Virus record (IMG/VR): IMGVR_UViG_2703718850_000013
Reading direction: 5' to 3' (one strand)
Source of the DNA: a virus
Taxonomy: Duplodnaviria; Heunggongvirae; Uroviricota; Caudoviricetes
Length of the DNA stretch: 32,125 bases
The notes beneath the pieces were generated by a model. That model worked only from the letters and a program-made list of their open reading frames with translations, had not been told where the DNA came from and did no database searches. The translations under genes were made by a program, and so were the position numbers. Below, in pieces: positions 2,639 through 23,461 of this stretch. Position 1 is the first letter of the stretch. Each line of letters opens with the position of its first letter.

Positions 2639-3460
2639 TTAATAACGGAAACTCCATGTTTTTCTACTCAAAGCTAACTTCTTATGGACAAGTAGAAATA
2701 CAAATATCTCATGGAGATATGGAACCAGAGGTTCTCTTATCCCTTTACTGTGCTCAATGTTGTCAATATCATCTTTAAATTTAGAAATTAGATAATAATA
2801 AGGCTGCAACATATCAATGATTTCAAACACAATATAAGGTGAAACGTTTATTACTTTCCAGGAAAGTATATACTCATCAATTTGGCTTAAAATCGCACCA
2901 TCAAGACCTCTATTCCAGGTGTAACCGTATGCTTTGTATTTGTCGGCCCATAAATTTAATTCTCTTTCTAGTTTTTGTTTTCTAGAATCAGTAATGTGTT
3001 TACGGAAGCAAGAATTAATTATTTCGTTCCACTGTGCTAACGGATCTTTGACTTCTTTTTTGCCTTTTACAATTTTATCAAGATTATAATATCTTGAAGC
3101 ATCAGCGAATTCAGAAAGCATTTCTAATATGAGGTTTTGCTGCCAGTTTAATTCCCACTCCAAATTGGGTAAATGGCTAGCACCATAGCTTGAACAGTTT
3201 TTATGAAGCTCCGCAATATTATGGCTGAATTTTTTAAGTGTACGGAAGTCTGGCTTCTCAAGATTATTTTCGATCATATGATTGAGTATGAAGATAATCT
3301 TAAAAAACCTTTCTATGCCAATTGATAATTGAAAGAAGCTGCTATAGAAGCTACCTTTATCATGTGCTCTACATTTCCGCACAGCAGTAAGCCCACCACC
3401 TATTGAGGTACTGGACAAATAAGACTCTACCATGAATTGATTAAATGACTCCCCAAGCAT
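2639..3460 (-). CDS. hypothetical cytoplasmic protein (273 aa), possible Abi/HEPN-like (weak)
   Basis: ORF with AAGGA Shine-Dalgarno 6 nt upstream of ATG at 3460; no TM segment; an R-x4-H motif (RKCRAH) near the N-terminus is the only HEPN-like hint. Confidence 0.55.
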   Translation of the reverse strand: MLGESFNQFMVESYLSSTSIGGGLTAVRKCRAHDKGSFYSSFFQLSIGIERFFKIIFILNHMIENNLEKPDFRTLKKFSHNIAELHKNCSSYGASHLPNLEWELNWQQNLILEMLSEFADASRYYNLDKIVKGKKEVKDPLAQWNEIINSCFRKHITDSRKQKLERELNLWADKYKAYGYTWNRGLDGAILSQIDEYILSWKVINVSPYIVFEIIDMLQPYYYLISKFKDDIDNIEHSKGIREPLVPYLHEIFVFLLVHKKLALSRKTWSFRY

Positions 3461-3497
3461 AAGCTTTCCTTTTTATTTACATCAATTAACTATAAAT

Positions 3498-4199
3498 TTA
3501 GCTGAACGAATAATCAGTATCAATATTTGTTTCACATAGCTCGTACTGAAATATGGCAGCTAGCTCTCTTTTAACACTTTCAAGATTTTCTGTAGCTGCA
3601 ATTACGTCCTCATGCTTGGGGCAATTAATATGTTTGCATATGGTCAATAGATATATATATTGATTGTCTAAATATGACTGCCTTAACTCTAATATATTTT
3701 TAAATAAATTTTCAAGCCGTTCGCTTAACTTAATATCAAACCTGGCTAGCATTGACCTTGTCGTATATAGCTTAGCAAGTTCAGATAAATCACTTGTGGC
3801 CTTTTTATTAATTTCAGCAGCAACTTTAGATTTTATTTCATCTGTCAGTTCTTTATTATCCTGAACATATTTCCTGATGGAAGCACGAACTATACCATCA
3901 TTATATAAACGTGAATTTATTTCCCATAACTGCATCTCAAATTTCATAGCCAACTGATGTGAGGTAGAAAGGGATTTTAATTTTTTATTCTGAACGAACC
4001 AATTATTTGCTACAAAAGCAGCACAAAGAGCTGTAGACGCAATCACGATATTGCATAACGCACTTGTTAAATCAGCTGCGTTCCCCCATTCAAACCCCCT
4101 GCTACCAGCGAATAGAACCTTAACGAGTACTAAGACTGCTAAAAACAGAAGTACTGCAACAATGCCGACAAGAGTAGAGTTTATAGTTTTTATATTCAT
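3498..4199 (-). CDS. 2TM membrane protein, paralog of 1777..2520
   Basis: Two N-terminal hydrophobic helices then a helical soluble domain; its ATG overlaps the upstream gene's TGA (ATGA at 4196-4199), implying coupling. Confidence 0.6.
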   Translation of the reverse strand: MNIKTINSTLVGIVAVLLFLAVLVLVKVLFAGSRGFEWGNAADLTSALCNIVIASTALCAAFVANNWFVQNKKLKSLSTSHQLAMKFEMQLWEINSRLYNDGIVRASIRKYVQDNKELTDEIKSKVAAEINKKATSDLSELAKLYTTRSMLARFDIKLSERLENLFKNILELRQSYLDNQYIYLLTICKHINCPKHEDVIAATENLESVKRELAAIFQYELCETNIDTDYSFS

Positions 4200-12898: not shown

Positions 12899-15014
<2,116 letters not shown>

Positions 15015-15455: not shown

Positions 15456-17138
15456 ATGGCTTTTATTACTAACAACACAAGTGTATGGATTAACACCGAC
15501 ACATTAAACAGTGACCCCAAATCGAAGGGATTTAAAGAAGTACCAGAATTAAGCGGGTTCCCTTCATTCGGTCACAGTACTGCAACCCTTGCTATTGAAA
15601 CATATGACTCTGAATACATCGAAAAAGTAGCAGGTGATAGCACATATGGTGATGTCACTATTACGGTTAACTGGGTTCCTGCTAAACATAAGTTTCTTGA
15701 TGACATCGTAAAAAGTCGCCAATTAGTACAAATGAAGGTAGAGATCCCCGATGAAGGACAGAATGACCTTACGGTTAACTATGCACTTTATAATGGTTAT
15801 CTGGCTTCTGTATCCACCAGTGGTGATTATGATTCTGTTACTTCCCGTTCCTACGTATTCACCCCAAACGAACAACTTTCTTCGGGTATTCTTGACAGTA
15901 CGATAGTCCCTCTAAATCGCGGAGACTGGGGCGTAGGTGCAAACGGTATTGAGTTTCCAAGTTATCAGGGGCGTGACGGTAATGCTTTTATTAAGATCCC
16001 TGGTGCAGGTTCACCAACAGGGACAGATGTACTCGGTATTAATAACCTTGATTCGAACTTTGGTACACAATTGGTTATCAGTAAGACAGGTACGCCAATA
16101 ATTAACGTGCGTAACTATGGTGCATCTATGGGGGCATGGTACAAGGTCTATACCAGTGCTGATAAACCTACACTGACAGAACTGGGTGCTGCATCAAGTG
16201 CATCCCTTGCAGACTACGTACCGATTACCCGTACTATCAATAGCAAACCACTAACTGCTAATATTACACTACTGGCTTCTGATATCGCTGATGTATACAG
16301 TAAGACGTATATAGATCAGAACGTAGTCCCAAAAGTATTCCAGTTAAACGGTCATGCACTATCCGGTACGGCATTAAACTTAGTTGCCGCAGATATTCTT
16401 GATGTGTATTCACAGACTCAGGTTGATACTTCATTTGTTAAAAAAACAACTACTGTTAACGGTTTAAGTCTTTCCCAGAATATAACACTGACAGCCGCAC
16501 AACTCCCAGATATGGCAAGTATTGTTTTTACTAATAACACATATGTACCAAAAACATACTTAATCAACAATAAGCCATTATCAGGAACTAACATTCAATT
16601 AGTTGCTGCTGATATTCCTGATGTGTACTCACGTACCCAGTCAAATGATCTATTTGCACTACGTATCACCACTATTAACGGGTATGCTCTTAACAGTAAT
16701 ATAGTACTGAATTTTGATGATGTAGGAACATATTCAAAGAAACAGATCGATGACAAAGACAAGGTTCTGAAGGAAGATATTGATACGAAGGTAACAATTG
16801 TAGATGATATTCTTAAACTAAATACCCTTGTAAATAATTCATTAGAAATAGATTTGAGTGATAGTAAAACTACATTCACCGTGACTCTATCACAACCAAC
16901 GTCAAACTTCTCTGTACTAAATGCAAGTGGTAATGACAAAAAGAGTCAAACATTTCAGGTGCTTATTAAGCAGGGTACAGGGGCAAATAAAATATCCTGG
17001 CCTACAAACATTTTATGGTCTTATGGGCGTGTTCCAGTATTAACCTTTACAAAAGATTCTACTGATGTATTTCAGTTTGTCACAGTAGACGGGGGTAGTA
17101 CTTGGTACGGCTCTCTACTAATGGCAGATATGAAATAA
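15456..17138 (+). CDS. tail-tube-domain protein with C-terminal tail-fibre-like tandem repeats
   Basis: N-terminal region (…ITVNWVP…YALYNGYLASVSTSGDYDSVTSRSYVFTPNE) is homologous to the 158-aa protein at 20048 (…LSVNWKPG…YSIVNGYISSDVVGGDFDAVATREFVMTITGE); the C-terminus carries about five 35-aa repeats (xNGxxLSxNIxLxAADIxDVYS…). Confidence 0.6.
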   Translation: MAFITNNTSVWINTDTLNSDPKSKGFKEVPELSGFPSFGHSTATLAIETYDSEYIEKVAGDSTYGDVTITVNWVPAKHKFLDDIVKSRQLVQMKVEIPDEGQNDLTVNYALYNGYLASVSTSGDYDSVTSRSYVFTPNEQLSSGILDSTIVPLNRGDWGVGANGIEFPSYQGRDGNAFIKIPGAGSPTGTDVLGINNLDSNFGTQLVISKTGTPIINVRNYGASMGAWYKVYTSADKPTLTELGAASSASLADYVPITRTINSKPLTANITLLASDIADVYSKTYIDQNVVPKVFQLNGHALSGTALNLVAADILDVYSQTQVDTSFVKKTTTVNGLSLSQNITLTAAQLPDMASIVFTNNTYVPKTYLINNKPLSGTNIQLVAADIPDVYSRTQSNDLFALRITTINGYALNSNIVLNFDDVGTYSKKQIDDKDKVLKEDIDTKVTIVDDILKLNTLVNNSLEIDLSDSKTTFTVTLSQPTSNFSVLNASGNDKKSQTFQVLIKQGTGANKISWPTNILWSYGRVPVLTFTKDSTDVFQFVTVDGGSTWYGSLLMADMK

Positions 17139-19996
17139 TGAAACCACACAATATAGATAATGCATATCAAATGATCGAAGGTCAGTTTAAGTTCTTGGCA
17201 CGTAATACTGGCCTTACAACAAATAATAAGACACAGCACTATGTATTAAACCCAGATAATGTACTTGCAAACAACCGTCACTTTATTGCAGAAACTGGAT
17301 GGGAGGCACAGCCGGAAGGTGATGCAACTACAGAAGGTCAAAGCCTCCAGATTCTGGGGGCAATATATGTGTATCAGGCAACTAAAGACCCTTTCTATCT
17401 ACAGAAGGCAAAAGAGTACTTTAACGCATATCACAAGGCGTTCTATCGTGGTGCACCATTTCCAGATCCACCGAGTTCATCACTACGCTGTAATTGGATT
17501 TGTAATGGGAAGGCTCCAGTACTGGCACACTACCCATTAGATCCAGAATATCCGACGCATGGCGGTTTTAAAGGGACACTATTCACATGGGCTAATGGCC
17601 TTACAAAGATCCCACATGGTGCACCACACTGGGGTGAATACCTCGATGCAGTATGGTTTGCCTTCCCTAAGCGTGCGGGACTTGGCTGGAATCAGGTTAA
17701 CGCAACTGCTTATCTGTGGCTTGCCAATGAAGACTCAATAGACTGGGACACTAAAGCACCAACCTATGACGTCGAATGGATCATTGATCGTACCGGACGT
17801 AAGGTAGACTCAAACGGCACTGTACTGCAATCCGGTCTAACTGGTCAGGAAGGTACAGTACAGTTAAAGAATAAAACCATTACTGGTGAATATCGTTTTA
17901 ACTATGCAACCCGAAACCCTGTAGAACATGGCGGGTATATGTTCAAGCGTAATGAACGCTGGCATAACCGACCTGTACACGTACCGATTGATAACTATGG
18001 TTCTTTGGACTTCTCTGATAATGCATCAGATGCCGAATTATGGTTTTGTCAGGCAGCCAAGCTACTTTGGGATATTACAGGAGAACGCCAGTATTATCTT
18101 GCGTGGCAATGTGCACTATTAACCTGTTATGGATATTCAGATATTGACAAGTACGATATGTTCTTTCGTAAATCTACTATTGCCGTAACACCTTTTACTG
18201 ATGGTATTTCATACGACTACTTCTACCCAAGTGAGCAAGTAGCATCATATTCCCGTGATGCACAGGGTTATATTGTAATAAATCAAAGTGCATCCGCACA
18301 GACGATGTTAGAACAACAATCAATCTGGTTTAAATTCAATAATAACTCAAAGTTTCATATTGAATATGGTGGTGTTGATAATACCAGTACTGCAATGTCA
18401 GTTTCTGCTGAAGTCACAGTGAATAAAACAAAAACAGAAGAAGGTGCAATTGATTATCGGTGTGGTCTACCAATGACTAATCCAGATGGCTCTATCACTA
18501 CAATGGACATTCCTATGAATCGTTTTACACGTGTAATGAAACCAGATGGCTCTAATTATATGACTGCTGATCTACGTATGATCGCCGATTATGGAGATAA
18601 CACGGTAACAAACTTTGAATATCAGAGTGGAGTACTTGGAAATTATTACGATAACGTCGTGTCTACAACAATGGATGGTGACGGGGGACAGGTGGTGGGG
18701 TTTTGGATATTCACACCAGAGACTGCCAATATTCAATCTTTTACCTATCGTTCATATGATGATGATTTTAACTTTCGTATAAGTGATGATAATAAATGGC
18801 GTTGGTGGGCTATGCTCCCTGCAACAAATGGTGAATGGGTTACAAAGACTTTTACTATTGCTGACTTCAAACTAAACGGTTATCAACCCGATCACCCCGA
18901 AATTGAAGATCCAGATAACCCAGGAGAATGGATTCAACCTGATCCTATTCCCGCAAGCCCAGTACTAACGAACCGTGAATCTTTCACACTGCTACTTGAT
19001 GCAGATCCAGTAAATGGTGTGAATGGGAAGATTGACTGGTATTGTATTAATGATTTGCCTGCGATGTATACAGATGGTGGGACAGGTGATTATTCGGTCA
19101 CAGTACTGCTTACGTTTAACGACACAACTGGTAATGGTTACACAGCCCGTTTAGGTGACTGTACTATTAAGGATTATATGCTAGATAGTCTTGCGTATAC
19201 TCCGGGTTTAATTCCGTTCTCTAACATTACCGATCCCTATGCCCAGTTATATTCTGGGTGGCGTGGTCTACCGTATCCGGGTTATCAACTACCGGCGATC
19301 TGGTGCTTTAAAGGAACAGAAATAGATCATACTCGCTTAAATAACAGTATCAATTTTCTATATGATTCTCAGGCATGGTTTACAAATAAATTTAAACCAT
19401 CATTACCAGGACCATGTGCACAGGCTTTCGTATGGAACAGACAGGACGCTTTAGCATATGCCCCTGATGGTAAGCCAGATCAATTCATAATGCAGCACTG
19501 GTACGCCGAAGCATGGAGTGGATACGAACCAAGGGCTTTCTTTGGTGGGTGTGATGCAGTACATGAATTATGGTCACGACAAGACAGTACTGTAATACCT
19601 CCTAAACTAATATCTTTCTGCCAGAACTGGATGAACTATCTAAAATGGTTCATGAAAAATAATGGCGGTAAAGCTCCTACCTATTTTAGGGATAATGGTT
19701 CTGTAGAATATGATGGCTTTACCCCTCATATGTCCGGTCTATGGTTAGCAGGGGCATGTATGATGGCTATCGCCGGATATCCAGATCATGAGCTAATTCA
19801 ATTACTATTTGATGAAATACAACTTAACTATGCAGTTATTTCACCAAATCATGTAATGAATGGTACATGGCCTGCGTCAATCAGAACAGGTAATGAAACA
19901 ACTGCCGAAAACAATAGTATGTTCTTTGGTTTCTATTCGGGTGAACTTTTACGCGGATTGGGGCTATATGTGCATTACTACAATCTTCATAAATAA
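17138..19996 (+). CDS. large virion-associated protein (953 aa), possible carbohydrate-active tailspike or depolymerase
   Basis: TAATG overlap with the upstream gene (track start 17102 is TTG); aromatic-rich (many W/Y); no catalytic motif identified. Confidence 0.5.
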   Translation: MKPHNIDNAYQMIEGQFKFLARNTGLTTNNKTQHYVLNPDNVLANNRHFIAETGWEAQPEGDATTEGQSLQILGAIYVYQATKDPFYLQKAKEYFNAYHKAFYRGAPFPDPPSSSLRCNWICNGKAPVLAHYPLDPEYPTHGGFKGTLFTWANGLTKIPHGAPHWGEYLDAVWFAFPKRAGLGWNQVNATAYLWLANEDSIDWDTKAPTYDVEWIIDRTGRKVDSNGTVLQSGLTGQEGTVQLKNKTITGEYRFNYATRNPVEHGGYMFKRNERWHNRPVHVPIDNYGSLDFSDNASDAELWFCQAAKLLWDITGERQYYLAWQCALLTCYGYSDIDKYDMFFRKSTIAVTPFTDGISYDYFYPSEQVASYSRDAQGYIVINQSASAQTMLEQQSIWFKFNNNSKFHIEYGGVDNTSTAMSVSAEVTVNKTKTEEGAIDYRCGLPMTNPDGSITTMDIPMNRFTRVMKPDGSNYMTADLRMIADYGDNTVTNFEYQSGVLGNYYDNVVSTTMDGDGGQVVGFWIFTPETANIQSFTYRSYDDDFNFRISDDNKWRWWAMLPATNGEWVTKTFTIADFKLNGYQPDHPEIEDPDNPGEWIQPDPIPASPVLTNRESFTLLLDADPVNGVNGKIDWYCINDLPAMYTDGGTGDYSVTVLLTFNDTTGNGYTARLGDCTIKDYMLDSLAYTPGLIPFSNITDPYAQLYSGWRGLPYPGYQLPAIWCFKGTEIDHTRLNNSINFLYDSQAWFTNKFKPSLPGPCAQAFVWNRQDALAYAPDGKPDQFIMQHWYAEAWSGYEPRAFFGGCDAVHELWSRQDSTVIPPKLISFCQNWMNYLKWFMKNNGGKAPTYFRDNGSVEYDGFTPHMSGLWLAGACMMAIAGYPDHELIQLLFDEIQLNYAVISPNHVMNGTWPASIRTGNETTAENNSMFFGFYSGELLRGLGLYVHYYNLHK

Positions 19997-20007
19997 AAAA
20001 AGGAAAC

Positions 20008-20026
20008 GGGTAACAGGACGTTACCC
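20008..20026 (+). terminator. stem-loop GGGTAAC-AGGAC-GTTACCC just upstream of the major tail gene
   Basis: 7-bp perfect stem, 5-nt loop, A-rich before and AT-rich after; may be an attenuator or RNA stability element. Confidence 0.35.
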
Positions 20027-20047
20027 TAATTAAATAAGGAAATTAAA

Positions 20048-20524
20048 ATGGCTTTTAATCGAATTTTCGCAGCGAATAACGTTGTAGTAGAAATTGCAGA
20101 AGCACCAGCAGGTGGTGGTCAGGCAACCACTTTTACAGTAATTGAAGAAGTTGCAGCTTTCCCGGCAGCAGCAGGTGCTGAGTCTACAATTATCTCAGTA
20201 AATACATTTGGTAAGCAGTACGCACAGAAGCTTTTAGGATCTCGTTCTGTGCCAGATCTAACCCTATCGGTGAACTGGAAACCAGGGGCAGTAGGTCAAG
20301 AGATGTTAGTTACCGCAGCTCAAAAACAGACGCTTATGCAGGTAAAAGTAACTTATTACGAAAACATCGCTGATACCGATGGAGTGGGTTATTACTCGAT
20401 AGTTAATGGCTATATTAGTTCTGATGTTGTCGGTGGCGATTTTGACGCTGTAGCAACACGTGAATTTGTTATGACAATCACGGGCGAACCTGTAGCAGTT
20501 GGTGAAATTGCAGCAAAACCATAA
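20048..20524 (+). CDS. major tail (tube) protein, lambda V-like position
   Basis: 158 aa, immediately upstream of the chaperone/frameshift pair and the tape measure gene; shares its fold-level motifs with the N-terminus of 15456..17138. Confidence 0.65.
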   Translation: MAFNRIFAANNVVVEIAEAPAGGGQATTFTVIEEVAAFPAAAGAESTIISVNTFGKQYAQKLLGSRSVPDLTLSVNWKPGAVGQEMLVTAAQKQTLMQVKVTYYENIADTDGVGYYSIVNGYISSDVVGGDFDAVATREFVMTITGEPVAVGEIAAKP

Positions 20525-20556
20525 TATAAAATAATCATAATAAGGAAAAAATACAC

Positions 20557-20847
20557 ATGGATCTATCTAATCTAATGACAGCAATTGGTGTCAAAAAACA
20601 TGCCTTTGAACTTGCTCCGGGGTTTACTGTTTATATTCGTCTTCCAGCTATTTCTAAGTATAGTGAATGTAGTGACCCGTACACTACAATCCATTACTGT
20701 GTAGTTGATGCCAATGGTAAACAACTTTTTAAATCACCAGAACAGGTAGAGAGCGAAATTGACATGGTTTATCAAATCAAACTTAATACCGAAATCACGC
20801 GTATTTTTACCGAAGCTATGAATATTGAAGAAATTGAAAAAAAGTAA
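20557..20847 (+). CDS. tail assembly chaperone (G-like)
   Basis: 96-aa ORF between the major tail and tape measure genes, ending in a slippery heptamer. Confidence 0.6.
   Translation: MDLSNLMTAIGVKKHAFELAPGFTVYIRLPAISKYSECSDPYTTIHYCVVDANGKQLFKSPEQVESEIDMVYQIKLNTEITRIFTEAMNIEEIEKK
20838..20844 (+). promoter_or_regulatory. -1 programmed ribosomal frameshift site A_AAA_AAG
   Basis: The heptamer sits in the X_XXY_YYZ register of the 20557 frame (codons GAA AAA AAG TAA); the -1 frame is open from 20838 through to the stop at 21170. Confidence 0.6.
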
Positions 20848-20879
20848 GGGGCGATCCGTTTCTTAAACTTTCTCTAAAA

Positions 20880-21170
20880 ATGCTGATGACAAAAGGGTGT
20901 GGTGTGGAAGATCTCTGCACCATGCCCTTTTCGCTTTTTATCTATCTATTTGTATATGACACTTTTGTAGAACCAAATTCTTCCAGAATTGAACAGGTAA
21001 GACATACCGAAATACTCCAGGCTATATGGCTCAGTACTGGGAATATTAAGAAGGAAGACTTAAAGAAATTCAGTATCACAGAATTGGATTCTCTTAATAT
21101 CATCAACAATAAGACCATTAAAGAACAAGCCGAAGAGAGAGAAACGGATCGCCGAAGAACAGAGAGCTAA
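20880..21170 (+). CDS. T-like extension, probably expressed as a G-T fusion by -1 frameshifting rather than from its own ATG
   Basis: In the -1 frame relative to 20557..20847, with that frame open upstream across the slippery site. Confidence 0.5.
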   Translation: MLMTKGCGVEDLCTMPFSLFIYLFVYDTFVEPNSSRIEQVRHTEILQAIWLSTGNIKKEDLKKFSITELDSLNIINNKTIKEQAEERETDRRRTES

Positions 21171-21199
21171 CATGTTAAACTGGATGGGAAGAAAATAAT

Positions 21200-23461
21200 A
21201 TGGCAGGGAATAAACAACAGATGATTTTTGAAATCACTGGTGATGAATCTGGGTTACAAAAATCTTTAAAAAGTGCTGGCAATGGACTTGCCGACTTTGG
21301 TGATCGTGCTGGTGGTGTATTTGGTGGTATTAGTGGTGGACTAAGCACAATGGCAACTGGTCTTGGTGGTGTTGGTAATGCGGCAACCTTGGCAATTACA
21401 GCTATTACAGCACTGACTACATATACAATTGGTCTTGCAAACGAGATCAACGCATTGACCCGTACAACCGGACTGAGTGCCGAGCAACTTCAGCAGTGGT
21501 CAGGAGCATTCAAAACCATAGGATTATCTATGGAAGAAGTTGGTTCGATTAACGAAGCAGTGATGGACCAGCTTGGTATTGCGTCTGCTGACGGTTCTGG
21601 TGTTGGTGCCGACTTAAAAACATTCGGCGTAGATGTAAATAGCCTAATACCGACATTAAAACAGGCAGATGGTGGTTTACAGGCATTGTCAAAAGTCTTT
21701 TTTGATATGAAAAAGAATGGTGCAAATCTTGCCGAAATAACAAATATGATCAACGCCCTCGGTGGTGATGCTGCAAAACTAATACCGACATTCAACTCTT
21801 TTAACAGTGAGATTGAATTTAATAACTCTCTTGCAGCCCAGAACGTAGCAATGACTAATGAACAGGCAAAAACATTTGATCTGTTAAGTCAGAATACTTC
21901 AGGTCTTGGTAGTGGACTGAAAACTCTTGCATTTGAAATTGTTACACCCCTCATTGATATTTTTAATGGACTCGTAAAAGCCTGTAAGGAAATATATCAA
22001 TGGTTTGACAACCTCAAAACAAAAGCAGTTGAGTTTATTAATTCATTCTTTAACTGGGATTCAAATAATACGATCATACAGTCGTTATACGATCAGGTAA
22101 TTAAATTCTATGACATGATCCGTAATGTAGGCTCAAAGATTGGCCTTGAATTACCCGAGTTTACACCAGAGCAAATAGCAAAAGGACGTAAACACGTACA
22201 GACAGCAGCCGATGCAGTTTTCTCACCACTAGGCCCAGGTATTGGTGGTCTTGCTGCCCTTGCCCGTGGATATTCTCAGGAAGACTATAAACCAACCACA
22301 AAGGCATATACAGGAACGACAAAAGAGCGTTCTAACTTTGATGATGGTAAAGCAGGGGAAGAAGCGAAAAAAGCCAGTGATAAGGCCGCAAAGGATCGTA
22401 TTCAGGCTGCCAAAGTACTGGAACAGACTATGAATGGTATTGCAGGTAATGGTGCTGCCCTCCAGCTACAGCAATTTAATAAGACCCAGGATGAAATAGA
22501 ACAACGCATTAAAACAAGTGCAACTACTCTCGGTAAAACTGAAGCTGAAAAGACTGAACTATTAAGAAAGCAGACTGATTCACGTAAACGCCTGTATAAA
22601 GAAATGGTTGATTCAATGCTCACCGAAAGTGACCCACTTAAACTTGCCCAGAATATTTCAGCAATTGGTGGTTCTATGTCAGGGAAAGACCTTAATTCAG
22701 TACTGGCAGGTCAAAACGAACGTATGGGACTTAATCAAGATCCATTCAATATGAGTGCCGATCAGAACACGCTCGATACATTAGCAACAGAAGGACAGGC
22801 CGAATTAGCACTGAATCAAAGTCTGTATGAACAGAAGTTATTAAGTTATCAGGATTACCAAGATCGCATGGTAGCAATTCAACAATCTACTACAGACAAA
22901 ATGAGTCAGGCTAATATTGATGCCCAGCAAAAGACACTTTCTATGTATGCAACGGGTGCTCAGGATCTCGGTACTACTCTTGCAGGTGTATTTGGTGAAA
23001 GTAATGCTATGGCAAAAGCTGCATTTGCAATGAGCAAAGGGATCGCAGTTGCCCAGTCTATTATCAATATTCAGCAGGGTATTTCAGAGGCTATGAAACT
23101 TGGATGGCCTATGGGGATTCCAGCAGGGCTTAAAGTAGCTGCCGAAGGTGCCAATATTGTCAGTACGATTAAGGGTACAAAGATTGAAGGGCAGGCACAT
23201 GATGGCTGGGACTCACTACCGAAGACTGGTACATATAATCTTGAAAAAGGTGAACGTGTTGTAGGTAAATCTCTGAACCAGGACTTGACACAGTACTTGA
23301 ATAATAAGGGTGGTGATAAAGGCGGTGATATTAAAATTGATGCCCCTTTAATTATTCAGGGTGCCGGAGAACTCACAGATTCAAAATTCCAGAGTATGTG
23401 TGATAAACACGCCGATACTATCACTCAGGCAGTACGTAAAAGCCAACAGAGGAACGTCTAA
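21200..23461 (+). CDS. tail tape measure protein
   Basis: 753 aa, Gly/Ala-rich hydrophobic segments near the N-terminus, long helical body, directly after the chaperone pair. Confidence 0.8.
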   Translation: MAGNKQQMIFEITGDESGLQKSLKSAGNGLADFGDRAGGVFGGISGGLSTMATGLGGVGNAATLAITAITALTTYTIGLANEINALTRTTGLSAEQLQQWSGAFKTIGLSMEEVGSINEAVMDQLGIASADGSGVGADLKTFGVDVNSLIPTLKQADGGLQALSKVFFDMKKNGANLAEITNMINALGGDAAKLIPTFNSFNSEIEFNNSLAAQNVAMTNEQAKTFDLLSQNTSGLGSGLKTLAFEIVTPLIDIFNGLVKACKEIYQWFDNLKTKAVEFINSFFNWDSNNTIIQSLYDQVIKFYDMIRNVGSKIGLELPEFTPEQIAKGRKHVQTAADAVFSPLGPGIGGLAALARGYSQEDYKPTTKAYTGTTKERSNFDDGKAGEEAKKASDKAAKDRIQAAKVLEQTMNGIAGNGAALQLQQFNKTQDEIEQRIKTSATTLGKTEAEKTELLRKQTDSRKRLYKEMVDSMLTESDPLKLAQNISAIGGSMSGKDLNSVLAGQNERMGLNQDPFNMSADQNTLDTLATEGQAELALNQSLYEQKLLSYQDYQDRMVAIQQSTTDKMSQANIDAQQKTLSMYATGAQDLGTTLAGVFGESNAMAKAAFAMSKGIAVAQSIINIQQGISEAMKLGWPMGIPAGLKVAAEGANIVSTIKGTKIEGQAHDGWDSLPKTGTYNLEKGERVVGKSLNQDLTQYLNNKGGDKGGDIKIDAPLIIQGAGELTDSKFQSMCDKHADTITQAVRKSQQRNV

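What the first reader, a model, noticed from the sequence alone, without database searches (positions are those of the whole stretch)
20836..20882. Canonical -1 frameshift heptamer at the end of the tail chaperone gene
A_AAA_AAG sits in the correct register two codons before the chaperone stop, and the -1 frame stays open from there to 21170. A slip would therefore give a chaperone-extension fusion of about 200 aa, the conserved arrangement upstream of tape measure genes.
Basis: partly seen in the sequence, partly recalled or inferred. Interest (0 to 1): 0.45.

Follow-up and report, generated by a model that had tools for sequence, protein, structure and literature searches.

The report
Phage tail chaperone G/GT frameshift site
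An E. coli prophage makes a second, longer tail-assembly chaperone by letting a fraction of ribosomes slip back one base at A_AAA_AAG; this is the well-known phage G/GT device, left unannotated in this family, and two conserved RNA structures lie downstream of it.

Summary
A_AAA_AAG (20838-20844) lies in the right register as the last two sense codons of a 96-aa ORF (20557-20847). That ORF sits between a major tail protein gene and a tape measure gene. The -1 frame is closed by TGA at 20835-20837 and then open to 21170, so the heptamer is the only place a shift can join the two frames.

Relatives support the reading (56 G/T junctions readable, 41 distinct sequences aligned). The T-frame protein is conserved from the first codon after the slip site. 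That codon is GTA or ATA in most loci, so it is not a start, and the window's ATG 20880 is Leu elsewhere. G models as the HK97 tail-assembly-chaperone fold.

The family-wide invariant is only the tetramer A_AAR followed directly by the stop. The full heptamer occurs in just two lineages.

Two extra elements turned up:
- An 18-bp hairpin (20891-20931) with covariation and strong synonymous-site conservation.
- A 15-bp long-range helix (20850-20864 with 21139-21153) that starts 5 nt after the heptamer.

The window also carries a 2-nt deletion that truncates T.

Verdict: an ordinary G/GT frameshift and a new member of a known kind. The RNA elements are modestly interesting and their roles are inferred.

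The parts
20048..20524 (+). Major tail (tube) protein gene, directly upstream of G.
   Evidence: phrog_158 'major tail protein' E 3.7e-16. Weak Pfam Phage_TTP_12 match, E 8e-4. RefSeq calls it 'phage tail protein' in E. coli N61.
20557..20847 (+). G: tail assembly chaperone ORF, 96 aa, ending ...IEEIEKK*.
   Evidence: AlphaFold model pLDDT 77. Top PDB fold hit is 2ob9, HK97 tail assembly chaperone. BFVD hits include many named 'tail assembly chaperone'. Phage_TAC_13 matches below threshold in 14 of 15 homologues. The length of 96 codons is invariant in all 56 junctions read.
20835..20837 (+). TGA in the -1 frame, immediately 5' of the heptamer. It closes the -1 frame upstream, so the shift must occur at the heptamer.
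   Evidence: Translation of the -1 frame.
20838..20844 (+). Slippery heptamer A_AAA_AAG. P-site codon AAA is 20839-41 and A-site codon AAG is 20842-44. The core tetramer A_AAG is 20841-20844.
   Evidence: Read. In the family, the A_AAR tetramer directly before the stop is invariant, while the penultimate codon varies (GCA, GTA, GGA, TCA, ACA, AAA) with its third base always A.
20845..20847 (+). TAA stop of G, directly 3' of the heptamer (a 'shifty stop' arrangement).
   Evidence: The stop is TAA or TGA at the same position in all relatives.
20844..21170 (+). T: -1 frame extension, 108 codons in this window (VRGDPFLKLSLKMLMTKGCGVEDLCTMP...ERETDRRRTES*). It has no start codon before ATG 20880.
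   Evidence: Homologues P0001-P0004 align from the first codon. pN/pS is 0.38 in the T frame for 20844-20879. The ORF is truncated here by a 2-nt deletion.
20850..20864 (+). H1 5' arm (GGCGAUCCGUUUCUU) of the candidate long-range helix, starting 5 nt after the heptamer.
   Evidence: Present in both the MFE and the centroid fold of 20830-21210 and in the RNAalifold consensus. Duplex energy is -28.5 kcal/mol, with 0 of 183 control tiles as good. 82% of cells are paired over 41 sequences. The core GCGAUC is invariant, and the helix is weak in one clade. Synonymous variation dips here.
21139..21153 (+). H1 3' arm (GAGAAACGGAUCGCC), near the end of T and 46 nt upstream of the tape measure ATG.
   Evidence: It uses the rare Arg codon CGG. 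L012 has AGG here, matching a CCG to CCU change in the 5' arm.
20891..20931 (+). H2: conserved 18-bp RNA hairpin with a 5-nt loop, inside T, 46 nt 3' of the heptamer and followed by a U-rich tract.
   Evidence: Region 20845-20945 folds with z = -4.8. It is flagged terminator-like. 96.7% of cells are paired over 41 sequences. Pair 65/99 takes the forms CG, UA, AU and GC; pair 72/92 takes AU, GC and GU. Four G.U pairs are conserved. It has the lowest synonymous variation of the whole G-T region, 0.06-0.19 against a mean of 0.38. No Rfam family matches.
21135..21142 (+). (GA)4 run that is (GA)5 in near-identical loci. The 2-nt deletion shifts the end of T out of frame.
   Evidence: Alignment with L007 and L008. 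Three complete E. coli genomes match 1303 nt against the 1301-nt query. The +1 frame of the window encodes KRIAEEQRANMLNWMGRK*, which matches the conserved family C-terminus.
21200..23461 (+). Tape measure protein gene, directly downstream.
   Evidence: phrog_13674 'tail length tape measure protein', E 1.5e-56 over 11-750.

Best explanation
This is the programmed -1 ribosomal frameshift of a siphophage tail-assembly-chaperone gene pair (lambda G/GT type) in an E. coli prophage.

Mechanism. Most ribosomes translate G (96 aa) and terminate at TAA 20845. A minority slip back one base, with the two Lys-tRNAs moving from AAA_AAG (20839-44) to A_AAA_AA (20838-43). They then read GUA (20844) and continue through T to give a G-T fusion. 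By analogy with lambda, the G part would bind the tape measure protein and the T part would recruit the major tail protein.

What is shown and what is inferred.
- Shown: the sequence layout, its conservation in the family, coding-type conservation of T from the slip site, and the chaperone fold of G.
- Inferred: the slip itself and its frequency.
- The conserved core in the family is the single-tRNA site A_AAR abutting the stop. This window's lineage has extended it to the tandem-slip heptamer.
- More tentative (about 0.4): the long-range helix H1, whose 5' arm begins 5 nt after the heptamer, is the 3' stimulator.
- The conserved hairpin H2 is a real RNA element whose role is undetermined.
For: - Register and frame geometry were read directly.
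- The flanking genes are a major tail protein and a tape measure protein.
- In 56 related junctions, G is always 96 codons and ends xxA AAR + stop. The penultimate codon takes six forms coding six amino acids, all ending in A.
- The first T-frame codon is GTA or ATA in most relatives. It is GTG only where the stop is TGA.
- T-frame protein conservation starts at the slip site. pN/pS is 0.38 in that frame, and the other two frames carry stops.
- ATG 20880 aligns with Leu in most relatives (one clade also has ATG there) and has no Shine-Dalgarno motif upstream.
- G has the chaperone fold: 2ob9, prob 1.00; BFVD chaperone hits; Phage_TAC_13 below threshold in 14 of 15 homologues.
- The host is E. 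coli, where A_AAA_AAG is among the most shift-prone heptamers and A_AAG is the best tetramer. The tetramer needs a stimulator (PMC5009743; PMC4066793).
- H1.
- H2.
Against: - There is no protein or ribosome-profiling evidence, and no public record annotates a frameshift here. RefSeq calls G and a GTG-started T as separate hypothetical proteins.
- G and T match no PHROG, and Pfam only below threshold.
- The fold-search E-value is modest (0.028).
- Heptamers of this kind are common in this AT-rich window.
- H1 is degenerate in the largest clade (6 + 5 bp around a 3x3 loop; energy not better than controls). It shows little covariation, so its role as stimulator is unproven.
- T in this window is truncated, so the fusion here may be non-functional.
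Confidence: 0.85

Rival explanations
1. T is a separate protein made by independent initiation, either at ATG 20880 or at GTG 20904 as RefSeq annotates it. The heptamer would then be incidental.
For: ATG 20880 is in frame. Gene callers in public records call T separately, as a 123-aa protein from GTG/ATG in relatives and as a 98-aa protein from GTG in E. coli N61 and FDN-24. In relatives whose stop is TGA, a GTG overlaps the stop (AAGTGA), which could allow termination-reinitiation.
Against: The 12 codons upstream of ATG 20880 are conserved as protein in the T frame. Most relatives have GTA or ATA there, so no start. ATG 20880 is Leu in most relatives. There is no Shine-Dalgarno motif within 15 nt of 20880. 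GTG 20904 lies inside the H2 stem. The third base of the penultimate G codon is fixed as A while its amino acid varies six ways. That constraint is explained by slippage and not by reinitiation.
Confidence: 0.06
2. The fusion arises mainly from transcriptional slippage. RNA polymerase adds one A in the A7 run (20837-20843), and ordinary translation of the edited mRNA gives the same G-T protein.
For: The window has seven consecutive A, and L039 and L043 have eight. Homopolymer slippage is used productively in some bacterial genes (PMC5009743).
Against: Most family members have only AAA (GCAAAG and similar) at the site, too short for polymerase slippage, yet keep the same architecture. From general knowledge, E. 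coli RNA polymerase slippage is usually substantial only at runs of about nine or more. The A_AAR register and the adjoining stop are features of ribosomal slippage.
Confidence: 0.05
3. The heptamer is a chance feature of an AT-rich, decaying prophage, and no G-T fusion of any consequence is made here.
For: The motif is common in the window. T is truncated by a 2-nt deletion. The prophage is rare, in 3 of 5426 complete E. coli genomes, and one copy carries an IS3 insertion in the tail/head region.
Against: The site, the frame relation and T coding are conserved across about 40 distinct sequences from several Enterobacterales. Synonymous sites are constrained at the slip site. The deletion may make the product defective in this strain, but it does not affect the recoding signal.
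Confidence: 0.04
4. H1 and H2 are not frameshift stimulators. They serve other needs of a stretch of mRNA that is rarely translated. H2 could be a partial intrinsic terminator, or an RNA-stability or processing hairpin, that steps expression down between the abundant tube/G proteins and the scarce tape measure and tip proteins. H1 could couple G translation to tape measure initiation, or protect the T region from Rho or RNases.
For: H2 is 46 nt from the slip site, outside the usual 5-9 nt spacing (PMC5009743). It matches a terminator pattern: a GC-based stem followed by UUUUCGCUUUUU. The H1 3' arm lies 46 nt before the tape measure ATG, so a ribosome stopping at TAA 20845 would melt H1. H1 is weak in one clade that keeps the same slip site.
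Against: The H1 5' arm sits at the classical stimulator spacing (5-6 nt) in every clade. The A_AAG tetramer alone is near background in E. coli and needs a stimulator (PMC4066793). The 18-bp H2 stem is long for an intrinsic terminator. No direct data support either reading.
Confidence: 0.35

Closest known systems
Phage lambda G/GT (and HK97, P2 E/E') tail assembly chaperone programmed -1 frameshift (Levin, Hendrix and Casjens 1993; Xu, Hendrix and Duda 2004, 2013, 2014; summarised in PMC5009743)
   Same: Two small ORFs lie between the major tail protein and tape measure genes. The second ORF is in the -1 frame and has no start of its own. The slippery site sits at the very end of the first ORF. 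G has the HK97 chaperone fold.
   Different: There is no detectable sequence similarity to lambda G or T, no PHROG match, and Pfam matches only below threshold. The site is A_AAA_AAG rather than G_GGA_AAG, and it abuts the stop. The conserved core in the family is only a tetramer. Conserved downstream RNA structure is present here; as far as I recall, none is required in lambda.
E. coli dnaX frameshift cassette (A_AAA_AAG, upstream Shine-Dalgarno-like element, stem-loop 6 nt downstream)
   Same: Identical heptamer, decoded by the same single tRNA-Lys. A helix begins 5 nt downstream.
   Different: No Shine-Dalgarno-like element lies 6-17 nt upstream (read). The downstream helix is closed by a partner 275 nt away, not by a local hairpin. 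The outcome is an extended product, not a truncated one.
A_AAG tetramer sites in IS3-family elements (IS1222 G_CGA_AAG, B. subtilis cdd A_CGA_AAG) and 'shifty stop' sites
   Same: Relatives of this locus carry only N_NNA_AAG. The Lys codon is followed directly by a stop, which should slow A-site decoding. The tetramer depends on a stimulator (PMC4066793).
   Different: In the IS elements the stimulators are local pseudoknots or an upstream Shine-Dalgarno. Here the candidates are a long-range helix and a distal hairpin.
Long-range frameshift stimulators: barley yellow dwarf virus (4 kb), IS ALIL pseudoknots (second stem-loop 44-104 nt 3'), phage T7 gene 10 (element more than 200 nt 3')
   Same: An element far 3' of the shift site is implicated by sequence. 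H2 lies 46 nt from the site, and the H1 partner about 275 nt from its 5' arm.
   Different: In those cases a local stem-loop next to the site is modified by a distant loop. Here the site-proximal strand itself pairs with the distant strand. No loop-loop pairing involving H2 is conserved. All of this is untested.

Membership tests
Phage tail assembly chaperone G/GT programmed frameshift (lambda type) | The gene pair lies between the major tail (tube) protein gene and the tape measure gene. | tested here: met
   phrog_158 for 20048-20524 and phrog_13674 for 21200-23461. The same gene order is seen in L001, L002 and L005.
Phage tail assembly chaperone G/GT programmed frameshift (lambda type) | The second ORF overlaps the end of the first in another frame and lacks its own conserved start and ribosome-binding site. 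| tested here: met
   It is in the -1 frame. The first codon is GTA here and GTA or ATA in most relatives. ATG 20880 is not conserved and has no Shine-Dalgarno motif.
Phage tail assembly chaperone G/GT programmed frameshift (lambda type) | A slippery sequence lies in the correct register within the overlap and is conserved among relatives. | tested here: met
   A_AAA_AAG at 20838-20844. The A_AAR tetramer is invariant at the same position in 56 junctions, with the third base of the preceding codon fixed as A.
Phage tail assembly chaperone G/GT programmed frameshift (lambda type) | The downstream frame is under protein-coding selection from the slip site onward. | tested here: met
   pN/pS is 0.38 in the T frame for the 12 codons before ATG 20880, and the other frames contain stops. 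Alignment A3 shows the conservation.
Phage tail assembly chaperone G/GT programmed frameshift (lambda type) | G has the tail-assembly-chaperone fold. | tested here: met
   The AlphaFold model (pLDDT 77) has 2ob9, the HK97 chaperone, as its top PDB hit (prob 1.00, TM 0.59, E 0.028), and the next hits have E above 2. BFVD hits are named tail assembly chaperones.
Phage tail assembly chaperone G/GT programmed frameshift (lambda type) | The fusion protein is actually produced at a low fixed ratio and is required for tail assembly. | not testable with these tools
   This needs mass spectrometry or western blots, reporter assays and genetics.
Pfam PF16459 Phage_TAC_13 | Score at or above the curated gathering threshold of 28.8 bits. 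| tested here: not met
   The window's G scores 14.2 bits, E 0.059. 14 of 15 homologues match below threshold, best E 4.6e-4. G is therefore a distant relative at most, not a formal member.
dnaX-type cassette | A_AAA_AAG plus an upstream Shine-Dalgarno-like element plus a local stem-loop about 6 nt downstream. | tested here: inconclusive
   The heptamer is present. No GGAG, GAGG or AGGA lies 6-17 nt upstream. The local hairpin 20845-20865 is not supported above shuffles. A long-range helix starts 5 nt downstream instead.
Intrinsic (Rho-independent) terminator, considered for H2 | A GC-rich stem-loop followed directly by a U tract, causing transcript 3' ends. | tested here: inconclusive
   The pattern scan flags 20891-20931 plus CGCTTTTTAT. 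The stem is unusually long, the U tract is also coding sequence, and termination itself cannot be tested here.
Rfam RNA families | A match to any curated covariance model in 20300-21500. | tested here: not met
   The only match is a chance snoU18 hit on the minus strand, E 0.37.

The most novel reading that the evidence does not exclude
In this chaperone family the frameshift is driven by a minimal 'shifty stop' site (A_AAR plus stop) whose stimulator is a long-range helix. The strand 5-6 nt after the slip site pairs with the end of the T ORF about 275 nt away, so the helix encloses the whole rarely translated T region. A strictly conserved internal hairpin (H2) helps that domain fold, or acts as an attenuator. 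Because a frameshifted ribosome would melt the helix as it translates T, recoding frequency would be linked to how often T is occupied by ribosomes, and possibly to tape measure expression. I know of no described case of a helix spanning the whole ORF acting as stimulator in a phage G/GT system.
Probability: 0.3. Interest if true: 0.65.

Novelty: new member of a known kind. Interest (0 to 1): 0.33.

Why it matters
- Annotation. In RefSeq E. coli genomes and in metagenome gene calls, G and T of this prophage family are 'hypothetical proteins', and T is given arbitrary starts (one of them inside a conserved hairpin). They should be annotated as a tail assembly chaperone with ribosomal slippage.
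- Biology. The family is a natural series running from a bare A_AAG-plus-stop site to a full A_AAA_AAG heptamer, with a downstream helix ranging from weak to strong. That series suits a study of how G:GT stoichiometry is set.
- RNA elements. If the long-range helix or the conserved hairpin controls recoding or downstream expression, it would add a new type of 3' element to bacterial frameshifting.
- Otherwise this is a routine example of a well-known phage device.

Tried and rejected
- Similarity to isolated phages: megablast of 20000-21300 and tblastn of the fusion against 50,697 phage records gave no match, so no annotated precedent could be read.
- Protein families: PHROGs gave nothing for G, T or the fusion. 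A PDB sequence-profile search gave nothing meaningful.
- Rfam: nothing.
- The local hairpin starting at the stop codon (20845-20865), which appears in the short-range fold, was tested on 41 sequences. It is 74% paired and no better than shuffles, and it starts 0 nt from the site. I rejected it as the conserved stimulator, although it could compete with H1.
- Pairing between the H2 loop and the GAUC of the H1 arm (an ALIL-like pseudoknot) was considered. The H2 loop sequence is not conserved (AGAUC, AGAAC, UGAAC, CGAAC and others), so I rejected it.
- A ribosome-collision model, with the leading ribosome paused at H2, was considered. The spacing leaves the trailing ribosome free to reach the slip site, so I rejected it.
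- The GTG start seen in P0002 and relatives is explained as a by-product of the TGA stop.
- The metagenome scan added no new clades, so covariation support for H1 could not be improved.
- Upstream Shine-Dalgarno-like stimulator: none in the window. GAGG next to the site in some relatives is simply a Glu-Gly/Ala/Val codon pair and is not invariant.

Full report
**1. The observation**

The sequence at 20820-20850 reads ...ATG AAT ATT GAA GAA ATT GAA AAA AAG TAA in the frame of the ORF 20557-20847, which is 96 aa and ends ...IEEIEKK*. A_AAA_AAG therefore occupies 20838-20844 in the X_XXY_YYZ register. AAA (20839) and AAG (20842) are the last two sense codons, and TAA (20845) follows at once.

In the -1 frame, a TGA sits at 20835-20837. 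The frame then reads AAA AAA GTA AGG GGC GAT CCG TTT CTT AAA CTT TCT CTA AAA ATG(20880)... and stays open to TAA 21168-21170. The only stretch where a -1 shift could join the two frames is 20838-20847, which is the heptamer. The predicted fusion is 96 + 108 = 204 aa. The description is accurate.

The motif alone is not significant in this 37% GC window:
- AAAAAAG occurs 19 times against 11.3 expected.
- There are 57 in-frame slippery heptamers in 9872 codons, three of them A_AAA_AAG.
- What sets this one apart is its context. It lies at a gene end and opens a 108-codon -1 ORF, whereas every other in-frame heptamer opens 34 codons or fewer.

**2. Context**

The gene upstream (20048-20524) matches major tail protein families, and the gene downstream (21200-23461) matches tape measure proteins at E 1.5e-56. 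The two small ORFs match no PHROG. Pfam gives only a weak Phage_TAC_13 match, E 0.059.

The window comes from an E. coli prophage:
- G is identical to an E. coli 'hypothetical protein'.
- Three of 5426 complete E. coli genomes carry the region at 96.6-99.8% identity.
- RefSeq annotates G and a GTG-started T as separate hypothetical proteins, with no slippage noted.
- No isolated phage in the phage collection has a detectable relative.

**3. Relatives**

I fetched about 70 related loci from Pseudescherichia and Escherichia genomes, viral contigs and metagenomes. They include 41 distinct sequences across the junction, falling into about 15 groups below 97% identity. Gene order is the same throughout.

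At every one of the 56 junctions that could be read:
- G is exactly 96 codons.
- G ends xxA AAG (or AAA AAA), followed directly by TAA or TGA.
- The penultimate codon is GCA, GTA, GGA, TCA, ACA or AAA. That is six amino acids, yet the third base is always A.

The constraint is therefore on the nucleotide tetramer A_AAR next to the stop, and not on the protein. The full tandem-slip heptamer exists only in the window's lineage (A_AAA_AAG) and in L039 and L043 (A_AAA_AAA).

The first T-frame codon is GTA, or ATA in L039 and L043. It is GTG only where the stop happens to be TGA. The GTG/ATG 'start' used by gene callers for the 123-aa T proteins is thus a by-product of the stop codon.

T-frame protein conservation begins at that first codon (VR[RGS]DP.LKL.L). 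Over the 12 codons that precede the window's ATG 20880, pN/pS is 0.38 in the T frame. The other two frames contain stops in several sequences. ATG 20880 aligns with Leu codons in most relatives (only L012's clade also has ATG there) and has no Shine-Dalgarno motif upstream. In this window, 20844-20879 can only be translated after a shift from G.

**4. Identity of G**

An AlphaFold model built on 15 homologues has pLDDT 77. Its best PDB match is 2ob9, the HK97 tail assembly chaperone (prob 1.00, TM 0.59/0.53, 93 columns), and all other hits have E above 2. Named hits in BFVD are largely tail assembly chaperones. Fourteen of fifteen homologues give sub-threshold Phage_TAC_13 matches. G is a chaperone by fold and position, but it is not a formal member of any curated sequence family.

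**5. Mechanism**

E. coli decodes AAA and AAG with one tRNA-Lys. A_AAA_AAG is among the most shift-prone heptamers in that host and is the dnaX site (PMC5009743). A_AAG is by far the best tetramer, but on its own it is barely above background. It reaches percent levels only with a 3' stimulator (PMC4066793).

The best-supported explanation is a tandem -1 slip in the window. In the relatives, a single-tRNA slip would occur with the slowly decoded stop in the A site. Either gives a G-T fusion of the lambda G/GT kind, whose ratio to G matters for tail assembly (PMC5009743). The slip itself and its frequency are inferred.

Transcriptional slippage on the A7 run would give the same protein. It cannot explain the relatives, which have only AAA at the site.

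**6. Conserved RNA downstream**

A synonymous-difference profile over 15 diverse G-T sequences has a mean of 0.38 and three dips:
- The slip site and the following 8 codons: 0.18-0.27.
- Fusion codons 110-125: 0.06-0.19.
- The KRIAE region near the end of T: 0.20-0.26.

The deepest dip is H2, an 18-bp hairpin with a 5-nt loop at 20891-20931.
- Region 20845-20945 folds with z = -4.8.
- RNAalifold recovers it.
- On 41 sequences, 96.7% of cells are paired. One pair takes all four Watson-Crick forms (CG 28, UA 7, AU 4, GC 2) and another takes AU 23, GC 17, GU 1.
- Four conserved G.U pairs show that it is an RNA structure on the sense strand.
- It lies 46 nt from the heptamer, too far for a classical stimulator.
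- It is followed by a U-rich tract and matches a terminator pattern.

The other two dips are complementary to each other. This is H1: 20850-20864 (GGCGAUCCGUUUCUU) pairs with 21139-21153 (GAGAAACGGAUCGCC), giving 14 Watson-Crick pairs plus one G.U.
- It begins 5 nt after the heptamer.
- It appears in both the MFE and the centroid fold of 20830-21210 and in the alifold consensus.
- Its duplex energy of -28.5 kcal/mol beats all 183 control tiles. Most clades behave the same way.
- There are a few compensatory changes: CCG/CGG to CCU/AGG in L012, and a G-C to C-G change at the outer pair.
- In the largest clade (KKIA) the helix is reduced to 6 + 5 bp and is no better than controls.

I regard H2 as a real conserved RNA element of undetermined role. 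I regard H1 as a plausible stimulator (about 0.4). Alternative roles include a partial terminator or stability element, coupling to tape measure initiation, and protection of a rarely translated segment. Precedents for distant 3' elements exist (BYDV, IS ALIL pseudoknots, T7 gene 10; PMC5009743). I know of none for a G/GT system.

**7. A defect in this window**

Compared with L007, L008 and the three complete E. coli genomes, the window lacks 2 nt of a (GA)5 run (21135-21142). T therefore ends ...ERETDRRRTES* at 21170. In the other loci it ends ...EREKRIAEEQRANMLNWMGRK*, at the position equivalent to 21198. The lost NML.WMG motif is invariant in the family. This is either a real inactivating mutation or a sequencing error. 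It does not touch the recoding signal or the H1 pairing.

**8. Verdict**

This is a new, unannotated member of the well-known phage G/GT frameshift class, so it is ordinary in kind. The added value is threefold: the family-level view (a tetramer-plus-stop core, upgraded to a heptamer in this lineage), a conserved hairpin with covariation, and a candidate long-range helix. Interest is modest at 0.33, and would be higher if the long-range helix proves to control recoding.

Noticed in passing
window 21135-21142 (consequence: T stop at 21168-21170 instead of 21196-21198): There is a 2-nt deletion in a (GA)5 run relative to L007, L008 and three complete E. coli genomes. It replaces the conserved T C-terminus (KRIAEEQRANMLNWMGRK) with TDRRRTES. 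It is either a real inactivating mutation or a sequencing error.
   Followed up: partly
window 20891-20931: A strictly conserved 18-bp RNA hairpin lies inside the T ORF, with covarying pairs, conserved G.U pairs and a U-rich 3' tail. No Rfam family matches it. It has the lowest synonymous variation in the G-T region.
   Followed up: yes
window 20850-20864 with 21139-21153: A 15-bp long-range complementarity (-28.5 kcal/mol) brackets the whole T ORF. Both arms contain GATC (Dam sites). The 3' arm uses the rare Arg codons CGG or AGG.
   Followed up: yes
L056 (E. coli N61) 12905-13201; L057 (FDN-24) 1205-1501; equivalent to window 20904 onward: RefSeq/PGAP starts T at a GTG inside the H2 stem and labels both G and T 'hypothetical protein'. 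No ribosomal slippage is annotated in any public copy.
   Followed up: yes
L056 10269-11431 (E. coli N61): In strain N61 an IS3-family element, itself annotated with a programmed frameshift, is inserted in the homologue of the window's 964-aa ORF (17102-19996), just upstream of the tail genes. That prophage copy is probably defective.
   Followed up: no
window 15456-17138 and 17102-19996: Two large ORFs (560 and 964 aa) of unknown function lie between the head genes and the major tail protein gene. The second is called with a TTG start and overlaps the first by 37 nt. Relatives carry 561-aa and 951-aa counterparts with no Pfam hits.
   Followed up: no
whole window: At 37.2% GC the window is very AT-rich for an E. 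coli prophage. The element is rare in E. coli (3 of 5426 complete genomes). Relatives occur in Pseudescherichia, Klebsiella, Enterobacter and Duffyella.
   Followed up: partly
L043 about 3274-3673 (A6/A8 columns 333-353): One relative has a 21-nt (7-codon) in-frame insertion (NKIQATN) in the T C-terminal region, just after the H1 3' arm. It also has a mismatched pair in H2 (C/A at columns 73/91) and the weakest H2 energy, -17.8 kcal/mol.
   Followed up: no
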